From: a virus | Lineage: Duplodnaviria; Heunggongvirae; Uroviricota; Caudoviricetes | IMG/VR virus record: IMGVR_UViG_2778261005_000027 | Reading direction: 5' to 3' (one strand) | DNA: 11,708 nt | Shown: positions 967 to 10,156 of the stretch, in pieces | Layout of the letters: every line of letters begins with the position of its first letter | Position numbering within the stretch: position 1 is the stretch's first letter | Notes under the pieces: model-generated | Told to the model about the DNA's origin: nothing | Database searches by the model: none | The model's input: only the letters and a program-made list of their open reading frames with translations | Made by a program: the position numbers and the translations under genes

Positions 967-1755
967 TTACCCCCTGAAGCCTGGCGGGATCGCACTGTCC
1001 GGCAACGAGACGGTGTTAACCTGTCGGAGCAACGTCTCAGGCCGAACACCTTTCGGTACGAACAAGCCCTGGTATTCATTGGCGATGCTGTGTCGAATCA
1101 CCTGCTCAGGTGTAAAACCCTGCTGACGGAATTTTTCCAGTTCCCGTATCGCCCCGTTAGCGCCCTGCTCCGTTCGAATCGGTTTTCGCAATGCCTGCCT
1201 GAACTGAACCCACTCATGCCAGAGTGTTTCCGGCAACCAGTCAGGCAGCTCGATAGCCTCCGGCTCGAATTTTTTAGACGCTCGTTTTTGGCGAGGGGGA
1301 TTTAGGGGGAGATCAGTATTTATATCTTCCTCTTCCTCTTCCTCTGGTAACGCTTTTTGATCCGTTTGTGTAACGCTGCCAGCGTTACCTTTTCGTTTCA
1401 GTTCGCGTATTTTTGTAACTCGCTCGTTTGTAACCGCCCGTTTTTTAGAGCTTTTCCCGTTATGACGTTCAAAGTTAGGTAGAGAAAGCCCACCGTCATT
1501 TTCGACCAGCCATCCAACCTGAATTAACGCATCAGCAAAACCAGCCATAAAAGTGATGCGATCTATTGCACTTTTTGTAACGCCGCGAGCGTTACAATCT
1601 GCATTACCGTCTATCATTTGTTGATCCGCCCATGCCCAGAAGCGAATAACCTTCCCTAATGCGGCATCTGGATCAATATTCAGAATCTCAGCAAGCCTGA
1701 ATATTTCCGGCTTATCCGGCGTAATAACCTCGAGCTTTATCCAGTTTGAAGCCAT
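967..1755 (-). CDS. ydaU: Putative phage replication initiator (lambda O-like role), 262 aa, with acidic poly-Glu linker
   Basis: Long ORF directly upstream of the DnaC-like gene, preceded by an AGGTGA Shine-Dalgarno. It contains an EEEEEED linker encoded by a (TCTTCC)3 repeat and embedded palindromic repeats. My recollection of K-12 YdaU is 285 aa, so this allele may differ in length. Confidence 0.8.
   Translation of the reverse strand: MASNWIKLEVITPDKPEIFRLAEILNIDPDAALGKVIRFWAWADQQMIDGNADCNARGVTKSAIDRITFMAGFADALIQVGWLVENDGGLSLPNFERHNGKSSKKRAVTNERVTKIRELKRKGNAGSVTQTDQKALPEEEEEEDINTDLPLNPPRQKRASKKFEPEAIELPDWLPETLWHEWVQFRQALRKPIRTEQGANGAIRELEKFRQQGFTPEQVIRHSIANEYQGLFVPKGVRPETLLRQVNTVSLPDSAIPPGFRG
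1369..1389. repeat. Palindrome copy 1 (TGTAACGC-tgcca-GCGTTACc) inside ydaU, flanked by extra GTAAC half-sites at 1346-1353, 1414-1419 and 1428-1434
   Basis: Read directly from the sequence: 8-bp inverted arms separated by 5 bp, with 7 of 8 arm positions symmetric. Confidence 0.75.
1576..1596. repeat. Palindrome copy 2 (TGTAACGC-cgcga-GCGTTACA) inside ydaU
   Basis: Read directly from the sequence: perfect 8-bp inverted arms with a 5-bp spacer. Confidence 0.8.
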
Positions 1756-2621: not shown

Positions 2622-3083
2622 ATGAAAAAAACACGCGAAGTGATTGCAACTCCAGAAGCGAGCAAGAATTTAAAAGCCGCATGGAATGCAAGAAAAAAAG
2701 AGCTGAAGCTGACTCAAGAGTTGGCGGCTGAGTTGTTGGGATTCGAATCTCAAGGCACCGTTAGCCAGTATCTGAACGGCAAGATACCGGTAAATACCGA
2801 CGCTGCGCTAAAATTTGCGGCTCTGTTAAAGGTAAAACCAGAGGACATTCGAGAAGACCTTAAAGACTTAATGAATTATGTAAGATCATCAGATACTTAT
2901 GATGATAGCTTTTCAGGCAAAGGATGGAGGCTGGTCAATGAAGAACAGGCAGAGTTACTTAACCTCTTCGAGATTCTACCTGCGTCAGAAAAAGCCAAAC
3001 TCCTTAACCAGCTACGTGGACTAAACAAGCTCTACGAGGAAGCCTTCGAGAACATGCTGGCACTAAAGAAACGTAACCAGTAG
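2622..3083 (+). CDS. racR: Prophage repressor (CI-like) with N-terminal helix-turn-helix, 153 aa
   Basis: Helix-turn-helix segment LTQELAAELLGFESQGTVSQYLNG. The gene is divergent from the Cro-like ydaS and followed by a bidirectional terminator. My recollection of K-12 RacR is 158 aa, so the start or allele may differ. Confidence 0.8.
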   Translation: MKKTREVIATPEASKNLKAAWNARKKELKLTQELAAELLGFESQGTVSQYLNGKIPVNTDAALKFAALLKVKPEDIREDLKDLMNYVRSSDTYDDSFSGKGWRLVNEEQAELLNLFEILPASEKAKLLNQLRGLNKLYEEAFENMLALKKRNQ

Positions 3084-3109
3084 CCACCGCTCACTACCCC
3101 ACCCACAAC

Positions 3110-3143
3110 AAAAAAAAACCGACGTCTTAGTCGGTTTTTTTTG
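3110..3143. terminator. Bidirectional rho-independent terminator after racR
   Basis: A9 tract, then stem CCGAC / GTCGG (3119-3123 and 3130-3134) with loop GTCTTA, then a T8 tract (3135-3142). The A-tract/stem/T-tract symmetry allows termination in both directions. Confidence 0.75.
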
Positions 3144-3199
3144 TGCCATAACTTCTGCAAATCAGCTGTATAACTAATATTTTTCCCTTGAAAAAACAT

Positions 3200-3268
3200 T
3201 TACATAGTTACAAAATCAAAAATATAATACGCCTTGCTGTTGACTTAAAATATACGTGTCACTAATAT
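3200..3268 (+). promoter_or_regulatory. Two tandem sigma70-like promoters for the early-left operon (pL analogue)
   Basis: P1 is TTACAT (3200-3205), 17 bp, TATAAT (3223-3228). P2 is TTGACT (3240-3245), 17 bp, TAATAT (3263-3268). Both lie downstream of the racR terminator and upstream of ydaG. Confidence 0.55.
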
Positions 3269-3335
3269 TTCTATCGAGAACAGCACGGCGCTGTAGGTTT
3301 TAGTTCCGCCACCCGGCGTTAAGGGGAGAGATAAA

Positions 3336-3470
3336 ATGGTGCATTACGAAGTAGTTCAGTATTTGATGGATTGTTGCGGTATCACTTACAGCCAAGCTGT
3401 ACAGGCTCTACGCAGCAACGACTGGGATCTCTGGCAGGCAGAAGCCGCTATATGCAGCAACAAGATGTGA
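3336..3470 (+). CDS. ydaG: Small Rac prophage protein, 44 aa (MVHYEVVQYLMDCCGITYSQAVQALRSNDWDLWQAEAAICSNKM)
   Basis: I translated this by hand; it is below the ORF-track length cut-off. An AAGGGGAGAG Shine-Dalgarno precedes the ATG at 3336. The 44-aa length and position match my recollection of K-12 YdaG. Confidence 0.75.
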   Translation: MVHYEVVQYLMDCCGITYSQAVQALRSNDWDLWQAEAAICSNKM

Positions 3471-3480
3471 GATTCGCAAA

Positions 3481-3636
3481 ATGCAAAAAATCGACCTCGG
3501 CAACAACGAATCCCTAGTGTGTGGCGTGTTCCCCAACCAGGATGGAACGTTCACCGCCATGACGTATACCAAAAGCAAAACGTTTAAAACCGAAGCTGGC
3601 GCACGTCGTTGGTTGGGAAGACATTCAGGTGAGTAA
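3481..3636 (+). CDS. ydaF: Small Rac prophage protein, 51 aa (MQKIDLGNNESLVCGVFPNQDGTFTAMTYTKSKTFKTEAGARRWLGRHSGE)
   Basis: I translated this by hand. The 51-aa length and position match my recollection of K-12 YdaF. Its TAA stop (3634-3636) lies 1 nt before the next ATG. Confidence 0.75.
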   Translation: MQKIDLGNNESLVCGVFPNQDGTFTAMTYTKSKTFKTEAGARRWLGRHSGE

Positions 3637-3637
3637 A

Positions 3638-4000
3638 ATGAACGAGACAGAATTAAAACACGTTATCGCTCTGCTTCTGGAGGATGCAAAGCGCCTCCAG
3701 CAGCTGGAACCAAATGCAGGCACTGAAGAACGAATTATTATGGCTAATAAAAGTCTACATTCTGCATATGATACAAATACAAAGCAAACAGATAAAAATA
3801 TTATTGTTTATGGGCACAGCGTTAACAGAGAATTTGCTTACTTTGTTCTGGAAAAATATCAACCTACATTTTGCCGGATAATAGAAGAACTAACATTAAA
3901 AGGCAAAGATAAAGAGTTTGTTGAAAATGCTGTGGCAACGGCAAGCGCAGCAGCCGTTGCCAGTATCAAATCAATGATTACTCTAGCGATTAACCAATAA
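3638..4000 (+). CDS. Hypothetical protein, 120 aa (ORF track gives 123 aa from GTG 3629); AT-rich cargo gene in the position sieB occupies in K-12 Rac
   Basis: A GGTGAG Shine-Dalgarno lies 4 nt before the ATG at 3638, consistent with coupling to ydaF. The gene is visibly more AT-rich than its flanks (by eye). I recognise no domain. The C-terminus AVATASAAAVASIKSMITLAI is moderately hydrophobic. Confidence 0.6.
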   Translation: MNETELKHVIALLLEDAKRLQQLEPNAGTEERIIMANKSLHSAYDTNTKQTDKNIIVYGHSVNREFAYFVLEKYQPTFCRIIEELTLKGKDKEFVENAVATASAAAVASIKSMITLAINQ

Positions 4001-4169
4001 ACCCAGGGGGGATATCACGCTGAGGCGGGTTAAGAAGCTCGGTAAACTCCGCTCTCAGGCGTTGAACTTCTGAAATAAAATCGGCTTCACTGCAATCCCA
4101 GCCTTTGGGGTGCTTAAGTCGCAAATATTCAAAAACTAACGAATCAATTTCATTCATATTGGATAGCAC
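3990..4169 (-). CDS. Hypothetical small protein, about 59 aa from GTG (55 aa from ATG at complement 4155-4157), ending DIPPGFIG like YdaU
   Basis: An AAGGAGA Shine-Dalgarno lies 6 nt upstream of the GTG at complement 4167-4169. An extended -10 promoter element (TGgTATACT) lies at complement 4203-4211. The C-terminal ...ELLNPPQRDIPPGFIG matches the YdaU C-terminus ...ETLLRQVNTVSLPDSAIPPGFRG using different codons. The longer 115-aa ORF-track version has no Shine-Dalgarno and would contain this promoter. Confidence 0.5.
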   Translation of the reverse strand: MLSNMNEIDSLVFEYLRLKHPKGWDCSEADFISEVQRLRAEFTELLNPPQRDIPPGFIG

Positions 4170-4354
4170 AATTATTCTCCTTACTGGTTGTGTGAGAACT
4201 CCAGTATACCACCGAGCCTGAAGTGGTAAAAAGACAGGCGCACAACACGAAGGCGCATTTCCGGTATCCATAAAGAGTCGGTCTTGTCTGTTAAATTTAA
4301 ATGGTGGGAGTGCGCCTCCGGTTGTAAATAACGACATTGCTGTGTCTAGTCTTT

Positions 4355-4398
4355 GGCGGCATCAGTTCTACTCCGTAGCTGCCCTGCCGCCCCTTTTT
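4355..4398 (+). terminator. Plus-strand rho-independent terminator: GC-rich compound hairpin followed by a T5 tract
   Basis: Outer stem GGCGGCA (4355-4361) pairs with TGCCGCC (4385-4391). Inner stems are CAG/CTG and CTAC/GTAG with loop TCC. A T-tract follows at 4394-4398. On the minus strand the hairpin is followed by AAAG, so it acts in the plus direction only. Confidence 0.6.
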
Positions 4399-4581
4399 AA
4401 AGTGAATTTTGTGATGCGGTGAATGCGGCTAAGCGCACGCGGAACAGTTAAAAAGCTATTGTCCTTCGTAGCAGAGTTATGGGTGAAATATCCGGCGTTA
4501 ATTGTTAACTGGTTAACGTCACCTGGAGGCACCAGGCACCGCATCAACAAAGTTCACTTCAGTGATGAAAGGTGAGAGAAA

Positions 4582-5433
4582 ATGTTGAATGTAGCTATTG
4601 AAAACCAGAACGGGTGGAATTATAGTGCACCTGCACCTCATAAAGCGGGTGCCGGGCGTGGAAACCCGATGATGACTACTGCGCATAACCGCGCTCAGGC
4701 GGTTTTTTTATGCGTAATGCACAGCCACATTCAGATTATGGTGGGGCGTGCAGGGCAGCCGAAAGGCTGGCCGGTTTCGGTAGTCACCGGTATTTCCACC
4801 CCTGTACGTCTCACCACCCTTATGGTCGTGGAAAGCCTTGGTGGTGAGTTATTTAAACTGACTATCGAGGCTGCCATCATGGCTACTATCCCTACCCTTT
4901 CTCACCCTGACGTAACCATCGAAAATGGTCGTGCTGCCACTACGTCTGTTGCAGTTGCAGAGTTTTTCCGCAAGCTGCATAAAAACGTCATTCAAAAAAT
5001 TGAAGCTCTGGAATGTTCCTCAGAATTCACTGAGCTTAATTTTAAGCCAAGTGAATACACCGACTCAACCGGGCGCAAACTCCCAATGTACCAAATCACC
5101 AAAAACGGCTTCGTTTTCCTGGTGATGGGTTTCACTGGCAAAAAAGCCGCTGCATTCAAAGAGGCCTACATCGCTGAGTTCGACCGCATGGAAGCAGAGC
5201 TACGCCAGAATAATACCACTCCCACAAACAAAATCATTCCGGGCGATGGGCGCACTCTGGTTGTTCGCTTCGACAAATTCGGCAACGTCGAATTCACTGA
5301 AACCGTTCCTGATGGCGCTCTCGTCTGTACCCTGGACACTTTCCGCCTTTATCTGGAGAAACAGGGCTGGACTCTTGTAAACCGAAGCGCAATTAAAAAT
5401 ATGACCGTCGAGCAGTTGCTGAGTATTAAATAG
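4582..5433 (+). CDS. Rha-family phage regulatory protein (longest ORF 283 aa; Rha-like domain begins near an alternative ATG at 4879, giving 184 aa)
   Basis: The segment TTSVAVAEFFRKLHKNVIQKIEAL ... YQITKNGFVFLVMGFTGKKAAAFKEAYIAEFDRME resembles the conserved Rha (Phage_pRha) N-terminal domain as I remember it. Both the ATG at 4582 (GGTGAG Shine-Dalgarno) and the ATG at 4879 (GAGG 8 nt upstream) are plausible starts. Confidence 0.6.
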   Translation: MLNVAIENQNGWNYSAPAPHKAGAGRGNPMMTTAHNRAQAVFLCVMHSHIQIMVGRAGQPKGWPVSVVTGISTPVRLTTLMVVESLGGELFKLTIEAAIMATIPTLSHPDVTIENGRAATTSVAVAEFFRKLHKNVIQKIEALECSSEFTELNFKPSEYTDSTGRKLPMYQITKNGFVFLVMGFTGKKAAAFKEAYIAEFDRMEAELRQNNTTPTNKIIPGDGRTLVVRFDKFGNVEFTETVPDGALVCTLDTFRLYLEKQGWTLVNRSAIKNMTVEQLLSIK

Positions 5434-5479
5434 TTTTCTGGAATTTTCTTAATACGAGAAATTTATTAAGGAGATAATT

Positions 5480-5701
5480 ATGATTGCTCATCACTTCGGA
5501 ACTGATGAAATACCACGTCAGTGTGTGACTCCTGGCGATTATGTTCTTCATGAAGGCCGGACATATATCGCCTCGGCAAACAATATTAAAAAGCGAAAAC
5601 TTTATATTCGTAGCCTGACTACAAAAACATGCATTACTGACTGCATGATTAAAGTCTTCCTCGGTCGTGATGGTTTACCTGTAAAGGCGGAGTCATGGTG
5701 A
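5480..5701 (+). CDS. kilR: Rac prophage killing protein KilR (cell-division inhibitor), 73 aa
   Basis: An AAGGAGA Shine-Dalgarno lies 5 nt before the ATG. The 73-aa length and sequence ([14 protein letters not shown]...) match my recollection of K-12 KilR. Confidence 0.85.
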
Positions 5702-5871
5702 TGACTAAGAAAATAAAATGTGCTTACCACCTTTGCAAAAAAGACGTTGAAGAAAGCAAAGCTATTGAAAGAATGCTTCACTTCATGCACGGGACTTTAT
5801 CAAAAGACGAACCGAGAAAATATTGCAGTGAAGCTTGTGCCGAAAAAGACCAGATGGCACACGAACTTTAA
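5701..5871 (+). CDS. ydaE: Small Cys-rich (zinc-ribbon-like) protein, 56 aa ([14 protein letters not shown]...YCSEACAEKDQMAHEL)
   Basis: I translated this by hand. Its ATG overlaps the kilR stop (TGATG). The 56-aa length and position match my recollection of K-12 YdaE. It has CxxxxC and CxxxC motifs. Confidence 0.75.
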   Translation: MTKKIKCAYHLCKKDVEESKAIERMLHFMHGTLSKDEPRKYCSEACAEKDQMAHEL

Positions 5872-5944
5872 TTAATTGACTATTCGAAACTGAATTTATG
5901 CCAGCAATGGCAGGGATTCGCTCAACCTTAATTAAGGAGAAAAA

Positions 5945-9768: not shown

Positions 9769-9975
9769 ATGACAAAAACTTTGAGATATGACGATGTTAA
9801 ACCATGTCCGTTTTGTGGTTGTCCATCAGTAACGGTGAAAGACATTTCATGATATTACCGGGCAAAATGCAACGGATGCGAATCCCGAACTGGCTATGGT
9901 GGAAGTGAAAAAGAAGCGCTCGAAAGATGGGATAAACGAACCACTGAAAATATTAATGGAGGCGTTCATGTATAA
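9769..9975 (+). pseudogene. ralR: ralR (lar, restriction-alleviation / type I toxin) reading frame interrupted by an in-frame TGA at 9850-9852
   Basis: The frame reads MTKTLRYDDVKPCPFCGCPSVTVKDIS-stop-YYRAKCNGCESRTGYGGSEKEALERWDKRTTENINGGVHV-stop. The stop separates the two CxxC halves of a zinc ribbon. Counting from the TTG at 9781 gives 64 codons, the length I recall for K-12 RalR, where I believe a Gly codon (GGA) occupies this position. Confidence 0.55.
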
Positions 9976-10156
9976 AATTACCGCTACAATTGAAAAGGAA
10001 GGTGGCACTCCTACTAACTGGACAAGATATTCAAAATCTAAACTAACGAAATCAGAATGCGAAAAAATGCTCTCAGGTAAAAAAGAAGCAGGCGTTTCCA
10101 GAGAGCAGAAAGTAAAACTGATAAATTTTAATTGCGAGAAACTTCAGTCCTCGTGA
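9968..10156 (+). CDS. ydaC: Small Rac prophage protein (ydaC-like), 62 aa from ATG 9968 (in-frame alternative starts at 9956 and 9896)
   Basis: A GGAGG Shine-Dalgarno lies 5 nt before the ATG at 9968. The gene sits between ralR and xisR as in K-12. I cannot match the exact length to K-12 YdaC. Confidence 0.65.
   Translation: MYKITATIEKEGGTPTNWTRYSKSKLTKSECEKMLSGKKEAGVSREQKVKLINFNCEKLQSS

What the first reader, a model, noticed from the sequence alone, without database searches (positions are those of the whole stretch)
3638..5433. Unrecognised three-gene cassette replaces sieB between ydaF and kilR
In K-12 Rac, as I recall it, the only gene between ydaF and kilR is the superinfection-exclusion gene sieB (162 aa, opposite strand). 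Here that slot is about 1.8 kb and holds an AT-rich 120-aa ORF, a convergent 55-59 aa ORF that mimics the C-terminal tail of the initiator YdaU, and a Rha-family regulator with a roughly 100-aa N-terminal extension. None is SieB-like, since none has multiple membrane-spanning segments. Exclusion and defence genes in lambdoid prophages tend to sit at this kind of early-operon position, so this is the most plausible place in the window for an undescribed exclusion, abortive-infection or replication-interference system.
Basis: partly seen in the sequence, partly recalled or inferred. Interest (0 to 1): 0.75.

Follow-up and report, generated by a model that had tools for sequence, protein, structure and literature searches.

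The report
Mosaic prophage slot, mostly known RNA modules
The 1.8-kb stretch that replaces sieB in this Rac-like E. coli O157:H7 prophage is three independent modules rather than one new three-gene cassette: two are known small-RNA systems, and only a rare pair of small convergent genes is still uncharacterised.

Summary
The ORFs exist as described, and K-12 Rac does carry sieB (plus the sRNA kilS) between ydaF and kilR. The interval is a mosaic, not a cassette.

1. **3613-4216, the true sieB replacement.** It is complete in 9 of 5426 complete E. coli genomes. It holds orf120 (+) and a convergent 59-aa gene (-) that is distantly YdiH-like. This pair recurs, with 3' ends overlapping, in 10 of 10 enterobacterial prophage loci examined. 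Both genes show coding-type substitution patterns. Neither has a fold, Pfam or PADLOC match.

2. **4208-4559, shared with K-12.** It carries a DicF-type sRNA, the kilS homologue.

3. **4560-5469, absent from K-12.** It is found at 80% coverage or more in 394 genomes. It is a P1 immI / Gifsy-1 isrK-type module: promoter, IsrK sRNA with terminator, C4 antisense RNA, and a Rha-family antirepressor that starts at ATG 4879.

The "100-aa N-terminal extension" is translated RNA genes. It shows no codon periodicity. The C4 loops co-vary with sites that cover the antirepressor's ribosome-binding site.

The YdaU-tail resemblance of the 59-aa protein is real. IPPGFxG is the flexible tail of DnaT and of several phage initiator families. 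A replication-decoy role is possible but untested.

The parts
3199..3228 (+). Candidate early-left (PL-like) sigma-70 promoter, TTTACA-18-TATAAT, upstream of ydaG/ydaF/orf120. Listed for context.
   Evidence: 11 of 12 consensus matches, the best site in 3050-5500.
3481..3636 (+). ydaF (DUF1391), the left flank of the slot, conserved with K-12.
   Evidence: Pfam PF07151, E 1e-28. Shared with K-12 over 3300-3620.
3638..4000 (+). orf120 (123 aa if started at GTG 3629). It is an early-left-operon protein. Residues 1-43 form an N-terminal helical module shared with many prophage genes. Residues about 55-120 form a C-terminal domain that always accompanies a convergent YdiH-like gene.
   Evidence: Full-length homologues at 46-65% identity in Salmonella and Enterobacter. 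Coding-type substitution pattern by codon position of 36/22/71 against L009. AF2 pLDDT 76, helical hairpin, beta-hairpin, helical hairpin. No PDB or BFVD fold match. PGAP annotates only 3638-3757, as a truncated pseudogene.
3990..4169 (-). orf59, a small helical-hairpin protein distantly related to YdiH (PF15930). Its flexible C-terminal tail NPPQRDIPPGFIG (last seven codons at 3993-4013) resembles the DnaT/YdaU tail. The 3' end overlaps orf120 by 11 nt.
   Evidence: GTG start with AAGGAG 7 nt upstream. Homologues in L007, L009, L010, L020-L022, L024, L026 and L027. Substitution pattern 18/8/31. AF2 pLDDT 83, helices 2-19 and 28-46, tail pLDDT about 64. Only 2 clusters in 5.8e9 proteins and 13 representatives in 1.84e9.
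4170..4230 (-). Promoter and 5'UTR of orf59: -35 TTTACC (4230-4225), extended -10 TGgTATACT (4211-4203), SD AAGGAG (4182-4177). This element accounts for the apparently conserved 'WYTGVLTQPVR' translation of the longer 115-aa ORF, which is rejected as a gene.
   Evidence: One search reports the site with TG. A 35-nt stretch, GTGGTATACTGGAGTTCTCACACAACCAGTAAGGA, is nearly invariant in four loci whose coding parts have diverged to 40-60% aa identity. K-12 shares only the -35 and spacer upstream of sieB.
4304..4398 (+). DicF-type sRNA, the homologue of K-12 Rac KilS. The Rfam DicF match lies at 4341-4392 and is followed by a T run.
   Evidence: RF00039, 55 bits against a gathering score of 48. 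The K-12 kilS region scores 39 bits. In alignment A3 the 5' part is KilS-like and the 3' hairpin is like Qin DicF. The segment 4208-4559 is 84% identical to K-12. KilS is described in PMC8175672.
4598..4626 (+). Promoter of the IsrK/C4/ant operon, TTGAAA-17-TATAGT. It lies inside the annotated 283-aa ORF.
   Evidence: 10 of 12 matches. The -10 ends 7 nt before the Rfam IsrK 5' end at 4633. Phage homology starts at 4630-4634.
4633..4709 (+). IsrK-like sRNA. It carries the a1 (4659-4664) and b1 (4673-4681) sites and a Rho-independent terminator (stem 4687-4704 plus T run).
   Evidence: RF01394, 63.5 bits against a gathering score of 50. Terminator found. Present above gathering score in 10 of 10 related loci.
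4734..4821 (+). C4-type antisense RNA with recognition elements b' (4775-4786) and a' (4793-4798). It overlaps the orf45-like leader AUG at 4738.
   Evidence: RF01695, 79.3 bits against a gathering score of 45. Its three stems are 100% paired in 11 sequences, with 7 pairs changed on both sides.
4829..4870 (+). Target sites a2 (4829-4834) and b2 (4859-4870). b2 includes the GAGG Shine-Dalgarno sequence (4867-4870) of the antirepressor gene.
   Evidence: Cognate C4-loop/target duplexes average -33.0 kcal/mol against -19.3 for non-cognate pairs, and the cognate pair is the best in 11 of 11 loci. SD plus ATG are invariant in the 10 Rha/Ant-linked loci of alignment A2; the ATG is also kept in P88.
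4879..5433 (+). Rha-family antirepressor (Ant/AnrP-like), 184 aa. This is the real coding part of the annotated 283-aa ORF.
   Evidence: TIGR02681 Rha domain at aa 10-111 of the 184-aa form. PF09669, E 4e-31. PHROG antirepressor families. Codon-position diversity 0.416/0.293/0.564.
4582..4878 (+). The 'N-terminal extension' of the annotated Rha ORF. It is not a protein domain: it is the promoter, IsrK, C4 and the a2/b2 sites read as codons. It carries the Pfam Phage_ASH hit.
   Evidence: Codon-position diversity is flat at 0.285/0.300/0.296. PF10554 covers aa 14-109, i.e. nt 4621-4908. The frame is broken in phage P88.

Best explanation
The interval between ydaF and kilR is a recombinational mosaic of three independent modules in the early-left operon of a Rac-like prophage.

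**Module A (about 3613-4216)** replaces K-12 sieB.
- orf120 is read from the early-left promoter.
- The 59-aa YdiH-like gene is read the other way from its own extended -10 promoter, so it is presumably made in the lysogen, as sieB is. That expression pattern is inferred.
- The two genes form a conserved convergent pair with overlapping 3' ends. My preferred reading, at low confidence, is that their products or transcripts antagonise each other.
- orf59 presents a flexible C-terminal peptide of the DnaT/phage-initiator type. It could interfere with assembly of DnaT-like initiators such as YdaU. This is also inferred.

**Module B (4208-4559)** is the DicF/KilS-type sRNA upstream of kilR. It is shared with K-12.

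**Module C (4560-5469)** is an immI-type switch.
- A promoter at 4598-4626 makes IsrK (4633-4709).
- Read-through transcripts carry the C4-type RNA (4734-4821).
- The C4 loops a' and b' pair with a2 and b2. This hides the ribosome-binding site of the Rha-family antirepressor, which starts at ATG 4879.
- IsrK carries decoy sites a1 and b1 that can titrate C4 and allow antirepressor translation. This follows what has been shown for P1 C4-icd-ant (my own knowledge) and for Gifsy-1 isrK-orf45-anrP (PMC4825925).
- The pairings and structures are shown here by sequence. The regulatory outcome and the repressor targeted are inferred from the homologous systems.
For: - **Breakpoints and independence of the modules:**
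- **K-12 content of the slot (sieB plus kilS):**
- **Module C.** Rfam hits above gathering score for IsrK and C4, repeated in 10 of 10 other loci with fixed spacing. The promoter ends 7 nt before the IsrK 5' end, and the terminator is present. C4 stems are 100% paired with compensatory changes; 0 of 500 shuffles reach the covariation score, and slid controls give 36-48% pairing against 92.7%. C4 loops, the IsrK sites and the sites over the ant SD co-vary as specificity sets, and the cognate duplex is best in 11 of 11 loci. GAGG-N8-ATG is invariant in the 10 Rha/Ant-linked loci. There is no codon periodicity upstream of ATG 4879 but clear periodicity downstream. The Rha domain starts at residue 10 of the 184-aa form. 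PMC4825925 describes the same locus type and notes an orf45-anrP fusion of 287 aa in S. dysenteriae.
- **Module B:** DicF 55 bits against 48, with homology to K-12 kilS.
- **Module A.** orf120 has full-length homologues. The pair co-occurs in 10 of 10 prophage loci. Both genes show coding substitution patterns. The promoter, UTR and SD are conserved. The tail motif is shared with DnaT and YdaU and with several initiator families. The tail codons of orf59 and YdaU differ at 5 of the 6 identical-residue codons, all at synonymous third positions, so the similarity is at peptide level.
Against: - No expression data were available for this strain. Promoters, terminators and RNA ends are predictions or homology transfers.
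- The antirepressor frame is open through the RNA module in 10 of 11 loci, and the leader AUG at 4738 is in frame with ATG 4879. A longer, orf45-fused product of 231 aa cannot be excluded.
- There is no icd-like gene and no IsrJ hit, so the module is a variant of both reference systems.
- For Module A there is no functional evidence at all: no fold, Pfam or PADLOC match.
- More distant YdiH-like members lack the IPPGF tail, including L010, whose own initiator has it. K-12 ydiH is a stand-alone chromosomal gene.
Confidence: 0.8

Rival explanations
1. The three ORFs form one undescribed three-gene exclusion, abortive-infection or replication-interference cassette that replaced sieB as a unit.
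For: All three ORFs lie between ydaF and kilR, where K-12 has sieB. Only 3 of 5426 genomes carry the exact combination.
Against: The interval is interrupted by a segment shared with K-12 (4208-4559) that carries the kilS/DicF sRNA. The Rha part occurs without orf59 (L002) and orf59 occurs without Rha (L005). The Rha part is a known IsrK/C4-antirepressor module, and its 'extension' is RNA.
Confidence: 0.04
2. The orf120/orf59 pair works only at the RNA level. Constitutive leftward transcription from the orf59 promoter collides with, or is antisense to, early-left transcripts. This would dampen leaky expression of the toxic downstream kilR in lysogens. The small protein itself would be incidental.
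For: The convergent arrangement with overlapping 3' ends (11-104 nt) is kept in all seven loci where the overlap was measured. No minus-strand terminator is predicted after orf59. The promoter and 5'UTR are the most conserved part of the module. K-12 sieB shares the upstream half of the same promoter region.
Against: orf59 and its homologues show clear purifying selection at the protein level, including the tail. The predicted fold is confident. The partner's protein sequence is also conserved.
Confidence: 0.12
3. The 283-aa ORF is a genuine two-domain protein, with an Ash-family N-terminal domain and a Rha domain, as annotated by PGAP and supported by Pfam PF10554 and PHROG 995.
For: Pfam Phage_ASH, E 7e-20, over aa 14-109; PHROG 995 aligns end to end. 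The frame is open through the region in 10 of 11 loci, with indels in multiples of three. PMC4825925 shows that the orf45 leader is translated in Salmonella.
Against: A promoter and a Rho-independent terminator lie inside the 'domain'. Homology in phages begins at the IsrK 5' end, not at ATG 4582. Codon-position diversity is flat. Amino-acid changes are radical exactly where the RNA pairing elements co-vary. The frame has stops in P88, where the downstream gene is different. In Gifsy-1, orf45 is out of frame with anrP.
Confidence: 0.07
4. orf120 and orf59 are ordinary early-operon accessory genes with no exclusion or replication role. The resemblance of the orf59 tail to the DnaT/YdaU tail is coincidental.
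For: There are no defence-model hits. The family includes a chromosomal stand-alone member, K-12 ydiH. The tail is absent from more distant members, even where the resident initiator has it.
Against: A seven-residue C-terminal match (six identical) is improbable by chance. The tail is kept as I/V-P-x-G-F-I/V in three genera despite synonymous divergence. The gene sits in sieB's place and orientation.
Confidence: 0.45

Closest known systems
Gifsy-1 isrK-orf45-anrP locus of Salmonella (Hershko-Shalev et al. 2016, PMC4825925)
   Same: Module C has the same order of elements: own promoter, 77-nt IsrK with a Rho-independent terminator, a structured leader beginning about +106, then an antirepressor-like gene. 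IsrK is complementary to the leader. The paper itself notes a fused 287-aa orf45-anrP reading frame in S. dysenteriae.
   Different: Here the module sits in the early-left operon of a Rac-like prophage between a DicF-type sRNA and kilR, not next to antQ. The leader frame is fused in frame with the antirepressor rather than ending in an AUGA overlap. No IsrJ match was found downstream. The pairing-element sequences differ, so this is a different specificity type.
Phage P1/P7 immI region (c4 antisense RNA, icd, ant). Rfam RF01695 and RF03163, clan CL00128.
   Same: The C4 covariance model matches full length. Two loop elements are complementary to one pair of sites upstream and one pair downstream. 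The downstream pair covers the ribosome-binding site of the gene that leads to antirepressor synthesis. The elements co-vary between phages as heteroimmunity-like specificity sets.
   Different: There is no icd gene. The blocked ribosome-binding site belongs directly to a Rha-family protein, not to P1 Ant1/2. The upstream sites lie in a separately terminated sRNA (IsrK).
DicF of prophage Qin, and KilS of K-12 Rac (PMC8175672)
   Same: The DicF-like sRNA in Module B holds the same position, in the early-left operon just upstream of the cell-division inhibitor gene (dicB or kilR). It matches the DicF model above the gathering score. The surrounding 350 bp are 84% identical to the K-12 kilS region.
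   Different: It is a hybrid. Its 5' part resembles KilS and its 3' hairpin resembles Qin DicF. The K-12 KilS region itself scores below the DicF gathering threshold.
SieB of Rac, lambda and P22 (superinfection exclusion)
   Same: orf59 has the same genomic position and strand as sieB in K-12 Rac. Its promoter shares the -35 and spacer sequence with the K-12 sieB upstream region.
   Different: There is no sequence similarity and no membrane segments. orf59 is 59 aa against 162 aa for SieB, and it is paired with a convergent partner gene.
YdiH family (Pfam PF15930, unknown function; E. coli K-12 ydiH)
   Same: Small proteins of about 60 aa with two predicted helices and conserved L..EF/Y.R...EF...V..LR..F..LL positions. 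Intermediate homologues in the same prophage position pass the Pfam threshold.
   Different: orf59 itself does not reach the Pfam model. It carries an IPPGFIG tail that most family members lack. K-12 ydiH is chromosomal and has no convergent partner.
DnaT C-terminal tail and DnaT-like phage initiators (YdaU/DUF1376 and others)
   Same: orf59 ends with the last seven residues I-P-P-G-F-x-G at the very C-terminus of a predicted flexible segment. DnaT has a flexible 20-residue tail with the same ending (PMC5778457).
   Different: orf59 has no DnaT three-helix-bundle domain, and no acidic N.[VI]S.PD stretch precedes the motif. The residue before the final Gly is Ile rather than Arg or Lys.

Membership tests
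C4 antisense RNA / P1 immI-type module (RF01695) | Full-length match to the covariance model above the gathering score | tested here: met
   79.3 bits against 45, model positions 1-87, at 4734-4821.
C4 antisense RNA / P1 immI-type module (RF01695) | Secondary structure supported by compensatory changes | tested here: met
   Helices 4-6 are 100% paired in 11 sequences, with 7 pairs changed on both sides. Slid controls give 36-48% pairing.
C4 antisense RNA / P1 immI-type module (RF01695) | Loop elements a' and b' complementary to upstream a1/b1 and downstream a2/b2 sites, the latter over a ribosome-binding site | tested here: met
   a1 4659-4664, b1 4673-4681, b' 4775-4786, a' 4793-4798, a2 4829-4834, b2 4859-4870 including SD GAGG. 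The cognate duplex is the best in 11 of 11 loci.
C4 antisense RNA / P1 immI-type module (RF01695) | An icd gene translationally coupled to ant lies downstream | tested here: not met
   The regulated start codon (4879) opens a Rha-family gene directly. An Icd-like gene follows the same element in another E. coli genome (H119).
C4 antisense RNA / P1 immI-type module (RF01695) | C4 released from the operon transcript by RNase P processing | not testable with these tools
   Requires RNA end mapping.
IsrK sRNA / isrK-orf45-anrP locus (RF01394) | Covariance-model match above the gathering score, with own promoter and Rho-independent terminator | tested here: met
   63.5 bits against 50 at 4633-4709. 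Promoter at 4598-4626 and terminator at 4687-4704 plus T run.
IsrK sRNA / isrK-orf45-anrP locus (RF01394) | Short leader ORF whose stop overlaps the antirepressor start (AUGA) | tested here: not met
   The leader AUG at 4738 is in frame with ATG 4879 and has no intervening stop. This is the same fused state that PMC4825925 reports for S. dysenteriae.
IsrK sRNA / isrK-orf45-anrP locus (RF01394) | Antirepressor-type gene downstream | tested here: met
   Rha domain PF09669 / TIGR02681, and PHROG antirepressor families. Antirepressor activity itself was not tested.
IsrK sRNA / isrK-orf45-anrP locus (RF01394) | IsrJ sRNA at the 3' end of the operon | tested here: not met
   No IsrJ match in the window at E <= 1.
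DicF sRNA (RF00039) | Covariance-model match above the gathering score, located upstream of a prophage division-inhibitor gene | tested here: met
   55 bits against 48 at 4341-4392. kilR lies downstream. The arrangement parallels ydfA-...-dicF-dicB in Qin.
DicF sRNA (RF00039) | Represses ftsZ and other targets by base pairing | not tested
   No target prediction was run.
SieB superinfection-exclusion protein | Sequence similarity to SieB, or multiple membrane segments | tested here: not met
   None of the three products has a SieB-related Pfam or PHROG hit. Both small proteins are predicted to be soluble and helical.
YdiH family (PF15930) | Match to the Pfam model above the gathering score | tested here: inconclusive
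   orf59 has no hit even at E <= 10. The positional homologue in L010 (35-40% identical) scores 30.8 bits against 27. A profile of orf59 and its relatives retrieves PF15930-annotated proteins at E 1e-19 to 1e-8.
Known anti-phage defence systems (PADLOC-DB 2.0) | Any component model matched | tested here: not met
   No hits at E <= 1 for orf120, orf59 or either form of the Rha protein.
DnaT-like primosome/initiator proteins | DnaT C-terminal three-helix-bundle domain followed by the N.[VI]S.PD..IPPGF[RK]G tail | tested here: not met
   orf59 has only the last seven residues of the motif, on a two-helix body. YdaU has the full domain and tail.

The most novel reading that the evidence does not exclude
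orf59 may be a lysogen-expressed decoy. It would be a two-helix scaffold presenting the C-terminal IPPGFxG docking peptide that DnaT and several phage replication-initiator families use. By competing for that peptide's binding site it could block primosome or initiator assembly of superinfecting (or resident) Rac-like phages. orf120, made from the early-left promoter, would be its conserved antagonist or partner. This would be a replication-targeted exclusion pair of a kind not yet described, sitting exactly where K-12 Rac carries sieB.
Probability: 0.12. Interest if true: 0.7.

Novelty: new member of a known kind. Interest (0 to 1): 0.35.

Why it matters
- **Annotation.** The widely used "Rha family phage regulatory protein" of about 283 aa, and the Pfam "Ash" domain on it, are here a promoter, an sRNA, a terminator and an antisense RNA read as codons. 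Anyone modelling prophage induction in O157:H7, or cloning this "regulator", would use the wrong start.
- **Prophage cross-talk.** The co-varying a/b elements define specificity types of an antirepressor switch. The switch is spread over Stx phages, Salmonella and Klebsiella phages and Rac-like prophages, which bears on cross-talk between co-resident prophages.
- **The sieB slot.** The ydaF-kil slot is a cargo hot spot, holding sieB, a GhoS-like gene, or the orf120/YdiH-like pair. This singles out one small, tractable gene pair for exclusion and replication assays.
- **The DnaT tail.** If the tail-decoy idea holds, it would also give a handle on the still unknown partner of the DnaT C-terminal tail.

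Tried and rejected
1. **The longer 115-aa version of the minus-strand ORF (to 4337).** Rejected. Its apparently conserved upstream translation is a near-invariant promoter/5'UTR/SD element, and it runs into the KilS/DicF segment.
2. **orf120 as a truncated pseudogene (the PGAP call).** Rejected. The frame continues to 120 aa, has full-length homologues and shows coding-type substitutions.
3. **orf120 N-terminus as YdfB or YdfC of Qin.** No resemblance.
4. **orf120 as a membrane protein.** Hand-calculated hydropathy of the Ala-rich C-terminal helix is borderline in the window copy. The homologues carry charged residues there, and AF2 packs it as a helical hairpin. This was not taken further.
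5. **Fold searches.** orf120 against PDB and BFVD, and orf59 against PDB, returned only generic helical hairpins with E > 0.07.
6. **orf59 in sequenced phages.** tblastn found no match. Two word-indexed protein searches found 2 and 5 proteins.
7. **PADLOC and NCBIfam.** Nothing for the pair.
8. **Literature on what the DnaT tail binds.** The 2026 preprimosome paper (PMC13377028) describes a hydrophobic PriA-DnaT CTD interface but its text does not name the tail residues. Other papers report only that the tail is flexible and contributes to cooperative ssDNA binding. The target of a putative decoy therefore stays open.
9. **Co-variation between YdiH-like tails and the resident initiator's tail.** Not found. 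All four initiators end in IP[PD]GFRG, while the L010 small protein has an unrelated tail.
10. **tRNA scan of the window.** None found.


Full report
**What the window is.** The window is the early region of a Rac-like prophage. It is 100% identical to E. coli O157:H7 strains 2571 and F6321. The gene order is ydaV, ydaU, ydaT and ydaS (all minus strand), then racR, a ydaG-like gene, ydaF, the interval in question, kilR, ydaE, racC, recE, recT, ralR/RalA, xis and intR.

K-12 Rac has the same order. Between ydaF and kilR it carries sieB on the opposite strand and the annotated sRNA kilS just upstream of kilR. The three ORFs exist at the stated coordinates.

**The interval is a mosaic.** BLAST against K-12 Rac and against the commonest non-K-12 variant gives clean breakpoints.
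- Window 3300-3620 (ydaG, ydaF) is shared with K-12.
- Window 4208-4559 is shared with K-12 at 84% identity and corresponds to the kilS region.
- Window 5470-5900 (kilR onward) is shared with K-12.
- K-12 has sieB where the window has 3621-4207.
- K-12 has nothing where the window has 4560-5469.

The common variant (L002) shares 4217-5900 with the window. It has only 81 bp in place of 3613-4216.

The frequencies of the two variable segments differ widely among 5426 complete E. coli genomes.
- The whole interval is present in 3 genomes.
- Segment 3613-4216 is present at 80% coverage or more in 9 genomes.
- Segment 4600-5433 is present at 80% coverage or more in 394 genomes, and matches in part in 941.

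In strain Z1323CEC0007, orf59 and the distal part of orf120 sit directly upstream of kil with no Rha gene. The two variable segments are therefore inherited independently. "Three-gene cassette" is not the right description.

**Module C, the Rha ORF and its "extension".** An Rfam scan of the window found the following matches.

| Rfam family | Window position (+ strand) | Score (bits) | Gathering score |
|---|---|---|---|
| IsrK | 4633-4709 | 63.5 | 50 |
| C4 antisense RNA | 4734-4821 | 79.3 | 45 |
| c4-a1b1 targets | 4620-4672 | 24.6 | 46.7 (below threshold) |

Several observations place these RNA genes inside the annotated ORF.
- A sigma-70-like promoter, TTGAAA-17-TATAGT, lies at 4598-4626. 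It ends 7 nt before the IsrK 5' end.
- A Rho-independent terminator lies at 4687-4704, followed by a T run.
- Both elements lie inside the annotated 283-aa ORF, which starts at 4582.
- Homology to sequenced phages begins at 4630-4634, not at the ORF start.
- The IsrK-C4 tandem, with constant spacing, was found above gathering score in all ten other loci tested. These include Stx1 and Stx2 phages, phiP27, a Salmonella phage, P88 and two E. coli prophages.

Alignment A2 of the eleven sequences supports a functional RNA switch.
- GAGGCTGCCAT-CATGGCTAC is invariant in the ten Rha/Ant-linked loci; the ATG is also kept in P88. This is a Shine-Dalgarno sequence plus the ATG at 4879.
- The C4 stems are 100% paired, with seven pairs changed on both sides. 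None of 500 shuffles reaches the covariation score. Sliding the 3' partners drops pairing from 92.7% to 36-48%.
- The variable blocks of the alignment are exactly the pairing elements.

In the window those elements are:

| Element | Position | Location |
|---|---|---|
| a1 | 4659-4664 | in IsrK |
| b1 | 4673-4681 | in IsrK |
| b' | 4775-4786 | C4 loop |
| a' | 4793-4798 | C4 single-stranded region |
| a2 | 4829-4834 | downstream of C4 |
| b2 | 4859-4870 | downstream of C4, includes the SD |

The elements change together from locus to locus.
- Cognate C4-loop/downstream duplexes average -33.0 kcal/mol, against -19.3 for non-cognate combinations. The cognate pair is the best in 11 of 11 loci.
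- For the IsrK sites the values are -26.4 against -15.8.

Diversity by codon position, read in the Rha frame, is flat upstream of ATG 4879 (0.285, 0.300, 0.296). Downstream it is typically coding (0.416, 0.293, 0.564). The Rha domain (TIGR02681) begins at residue 10 of the 184-aa protein started at 4879.

The Pfam Phage_ASH hit (E 7e-20) covers aa 14-109 of the long ORF. That stretch is the IsrK-C4-a2/b2 block.

This architecture is that of the Gifsy-1 isrK-orf45-anrP locus. There, IsrK acting in trans opens an inactive read-through transcript so that the antirepressor AnrP is translated. That paper reports a fused orf45-anrP frame of 287 aa in S. dysenteriae (PMC4825925). It is also the architecture of the P1 immI c4-icd-ant region (my own knowledge, plus the Rfam family).

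There is one caveat. The antirepressor frame is open through the RNA block in 10 of 11 loci, and the leader AUG at 4738 is in frame with 4879. A 231-aa leader-fused product is therefore possible. Initiation at 4582 is very unlikely to matter.

**Module B.** Rfam DicF matches 4341-4392 at 55 bits against a gathering score of 48. The K-12 kilS region gives the same family at 39 bits. In alignment A3 the window copy combines a KilS-like 5' part with a Qin-DicF-like 3' hairpin. KilS was found by RIL-seq and verified by Northern blot in the kilR 5' region (PMC8175672). This segment is ordinary Rac content.

**Module A, the real sieB replacement.** orf120 (ATG 3638; PGAP annotates only its first 40 codons, as a pseudogene) has full-length homologues.
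- They are 46-65% identical and come from Salmonella, Enterobacter and other enterobacterial prophages.
- In three loci whose neighbourhood was read (L007, L009, L010), the homologue is the first gene after the repressor gene in the early-left operon.
- Residues 1-43 are a module shared with many unrelated early genes.
- Residues about 55-120 form a separate conserved domain.
- AF2 gives a helical hairpin, a beta-hairpin and a second helical hairpin at pLDDT 76. No PDB or viral fold match was found.

orf59 has the following features.
- It starts at GTG 4169, with AAGGAG 7 nt upstream.
- It has an extended -10 promoter (TTTACC-16-TGgTATACT, 4230-4203).
- A 35-nt stretch covering the -10, the 5'UTR and the SD is nearly invariant in four loci whose coding parts have diverged to 40-60% aa identity. 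This explains the apparently conserved longer ORF.
- K-12 shares the -35 and spacer upstream of sieB and diverges at the -10. The right-hand recombination joint therefore lies inside this promoter.
- orf59 is very rare. There are 2 clusters in 5.8e9 proteins, 13 representatives in 1.84e9, and none in 50,697 phage records.

Positional homologues link orf59 to Pfam YdiH. The L010 copy scores 30.8 bits against a gathering score of 27.

In all ten prophage loci examined, a YdiH-like gene lies convergent to a gene encoding the orf120 C-terminal domain. The loci are the window, L007, L009, L010, L020, L021, L022, L024, L026 and L027. The 3' overlap, measured in seven of these loci, ranges from 11 to 104 nt. 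In four loci (L021, L022, L024, L026) the partner gene lacks the N-terminal module. Both genes show substitutions mostly at the third codon position. This conserved two-gene module is real, and I found no description of its function. PADLOC, Pfam and NCBIfam give nothing.

**The tail.** AF2 predicts orf59 as two helices (residues 2-19 and 28-46) followed by a flexible tail, NPPQRDIPPGFIG.
- The C-terminal domain of YdaU matches DnaT (PDB 2ru8, 9zbt). Both end in ...PDS.IPPGFRG.
- A scan of IMG/VR for IPPGFxG followed by a TAA stop returned 103 complete ORFs. Almost all are replication initiators, of at least four architectures, ending in N.[VI]S.PD..IPPGF[RK]G. The only small non-initiator protein among them was an orf59 copy.
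- The tail codons of orf59 and YdaU differ at five of the six identical-residue codons, all at synonymous third positions.
- The Enterobacter orthologue keeps EIPSGFVG despite DNA divergence.
- The resemblance is therefore at peptide level and is selected.
- The DnaT tail is a flexible 20-residue segment (PMC5778457). Removing residues 154-179 lowers ssDNA affinity and cooperativity (PMC4132743). I could not find its binding partner in the texts available.

Two points weaken a decoy model. More distant YdiH-like proteins have other tails, including L010, whose own initiator ends in IPPGFRG. K-12 ydiH is a stand-alone chromosomal gene.

**Verdict.** Two of the three modules are new members of described RNA-based systems, and the "N-terminal extension" is an annotation artefact. 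The remaining rare pair is an uncharacterised, conserved convergent module in the sieB slot. That slot also carries a GhoS-like gene plus DUF1883 in E24377A, and an IS2 insertion in another strain. A lysogen-expressed exclusion or replication-decoy role is the most interesting reading the data allow. I put it at about 0.12.

Noticed in passing
window 967-1755 (-), and IMG/VR loci L028-L147: The C-terminal peptide N.[VI]S.PD..IPPGF[RK]G of host DnaT is shared by YdaU and by at least four other phage replication-initiator architectures (clusters of 67, 29 and 2 ORFs, plus singletons). It looks like a portable docking motif whose partner is not stated in the papers I could read.
   Followed up: partly
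L003 2432-2543 (-), the K-12 kilS region; window about 4304-4345: The 5' part of KilS contains AUUGCUGUGUGUAGUC. This aligns with the conserved single-stranded region of the RprA model (28 bits, below threshold). KilS might share targets with RprA.
   Followed up: no
window 9974-10152 (-): RalA, the antitoxin sRNA of the RalR/RalA type I toxin-antitoxin system, matches full length at 218 bits against a gathering score of 170. It is antisense to the ralR-like ORF at 9896-10156.
   Followed up: no
window 4582-4908; Pfam PF10554: The Pfam 'Ash protein family' match coincides with the IsrK-C4-a2/b2 RNA block and shows no codon periodicity. The family may be built largely from translated RNA genes. 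PHROG 995 and PHROG 821 include the same stretch.
   Followed up: partly
L004 2669-3712 (E24377A), L005 1681-2909, L006 2651-3413: The slot after the DUF1391 gene holds different minus-strand cargo in different strains. E24377A has a GhoS-like antitoxin plus a DUF1883 protein. One strain has an IS2 insertion inside orf120. Another has about 760 bp with no annotation. A stub of the first 24-42 codons of the orf120 N-terminus remains beside the other cargo.
   Followed up: partly
window 4382-4565 (+): There is a sub-threshold match to the Salmonella sRNA candidate STnc100 (41 bits against 47, E 3e-6) directly after the DicF-like RNA. The K-12 Rac equivalent scores 28 bits. In related loci PGAP annotates an N-terminal dicB fragment in this region.
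   Followed up: no
window 3336-3470 (+): The 44-aa YdaG-like protein gives a UBA-like domain hit (PF14555, 24.1 bits against a cut-off of 21.8). That is unexpected for a prophage early protein.
   Followed up: no
L023 1435-1704 (-), K-12 ydiH: The chromosomal ydiH gene sits next to the sRNA rydB. Translation of its upstream region contains 'RWYT', as upstream of orf59. This hints at a related TGGTATAC -10 element and a prophage origin for ydiH.
   Followed up: no
H119, NZ_CP075697.1 5114605-5114637: The 33-nt b2/SD/ATG element of the antirepressor gene occurs at 100% identity in front of an Icd-like cell-division inhibitor gene in another E. coli genome. The same RNA switch therefore controls different payloads. 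In phage P88 it precedes a derepression-protein gene.
   Followed up: no
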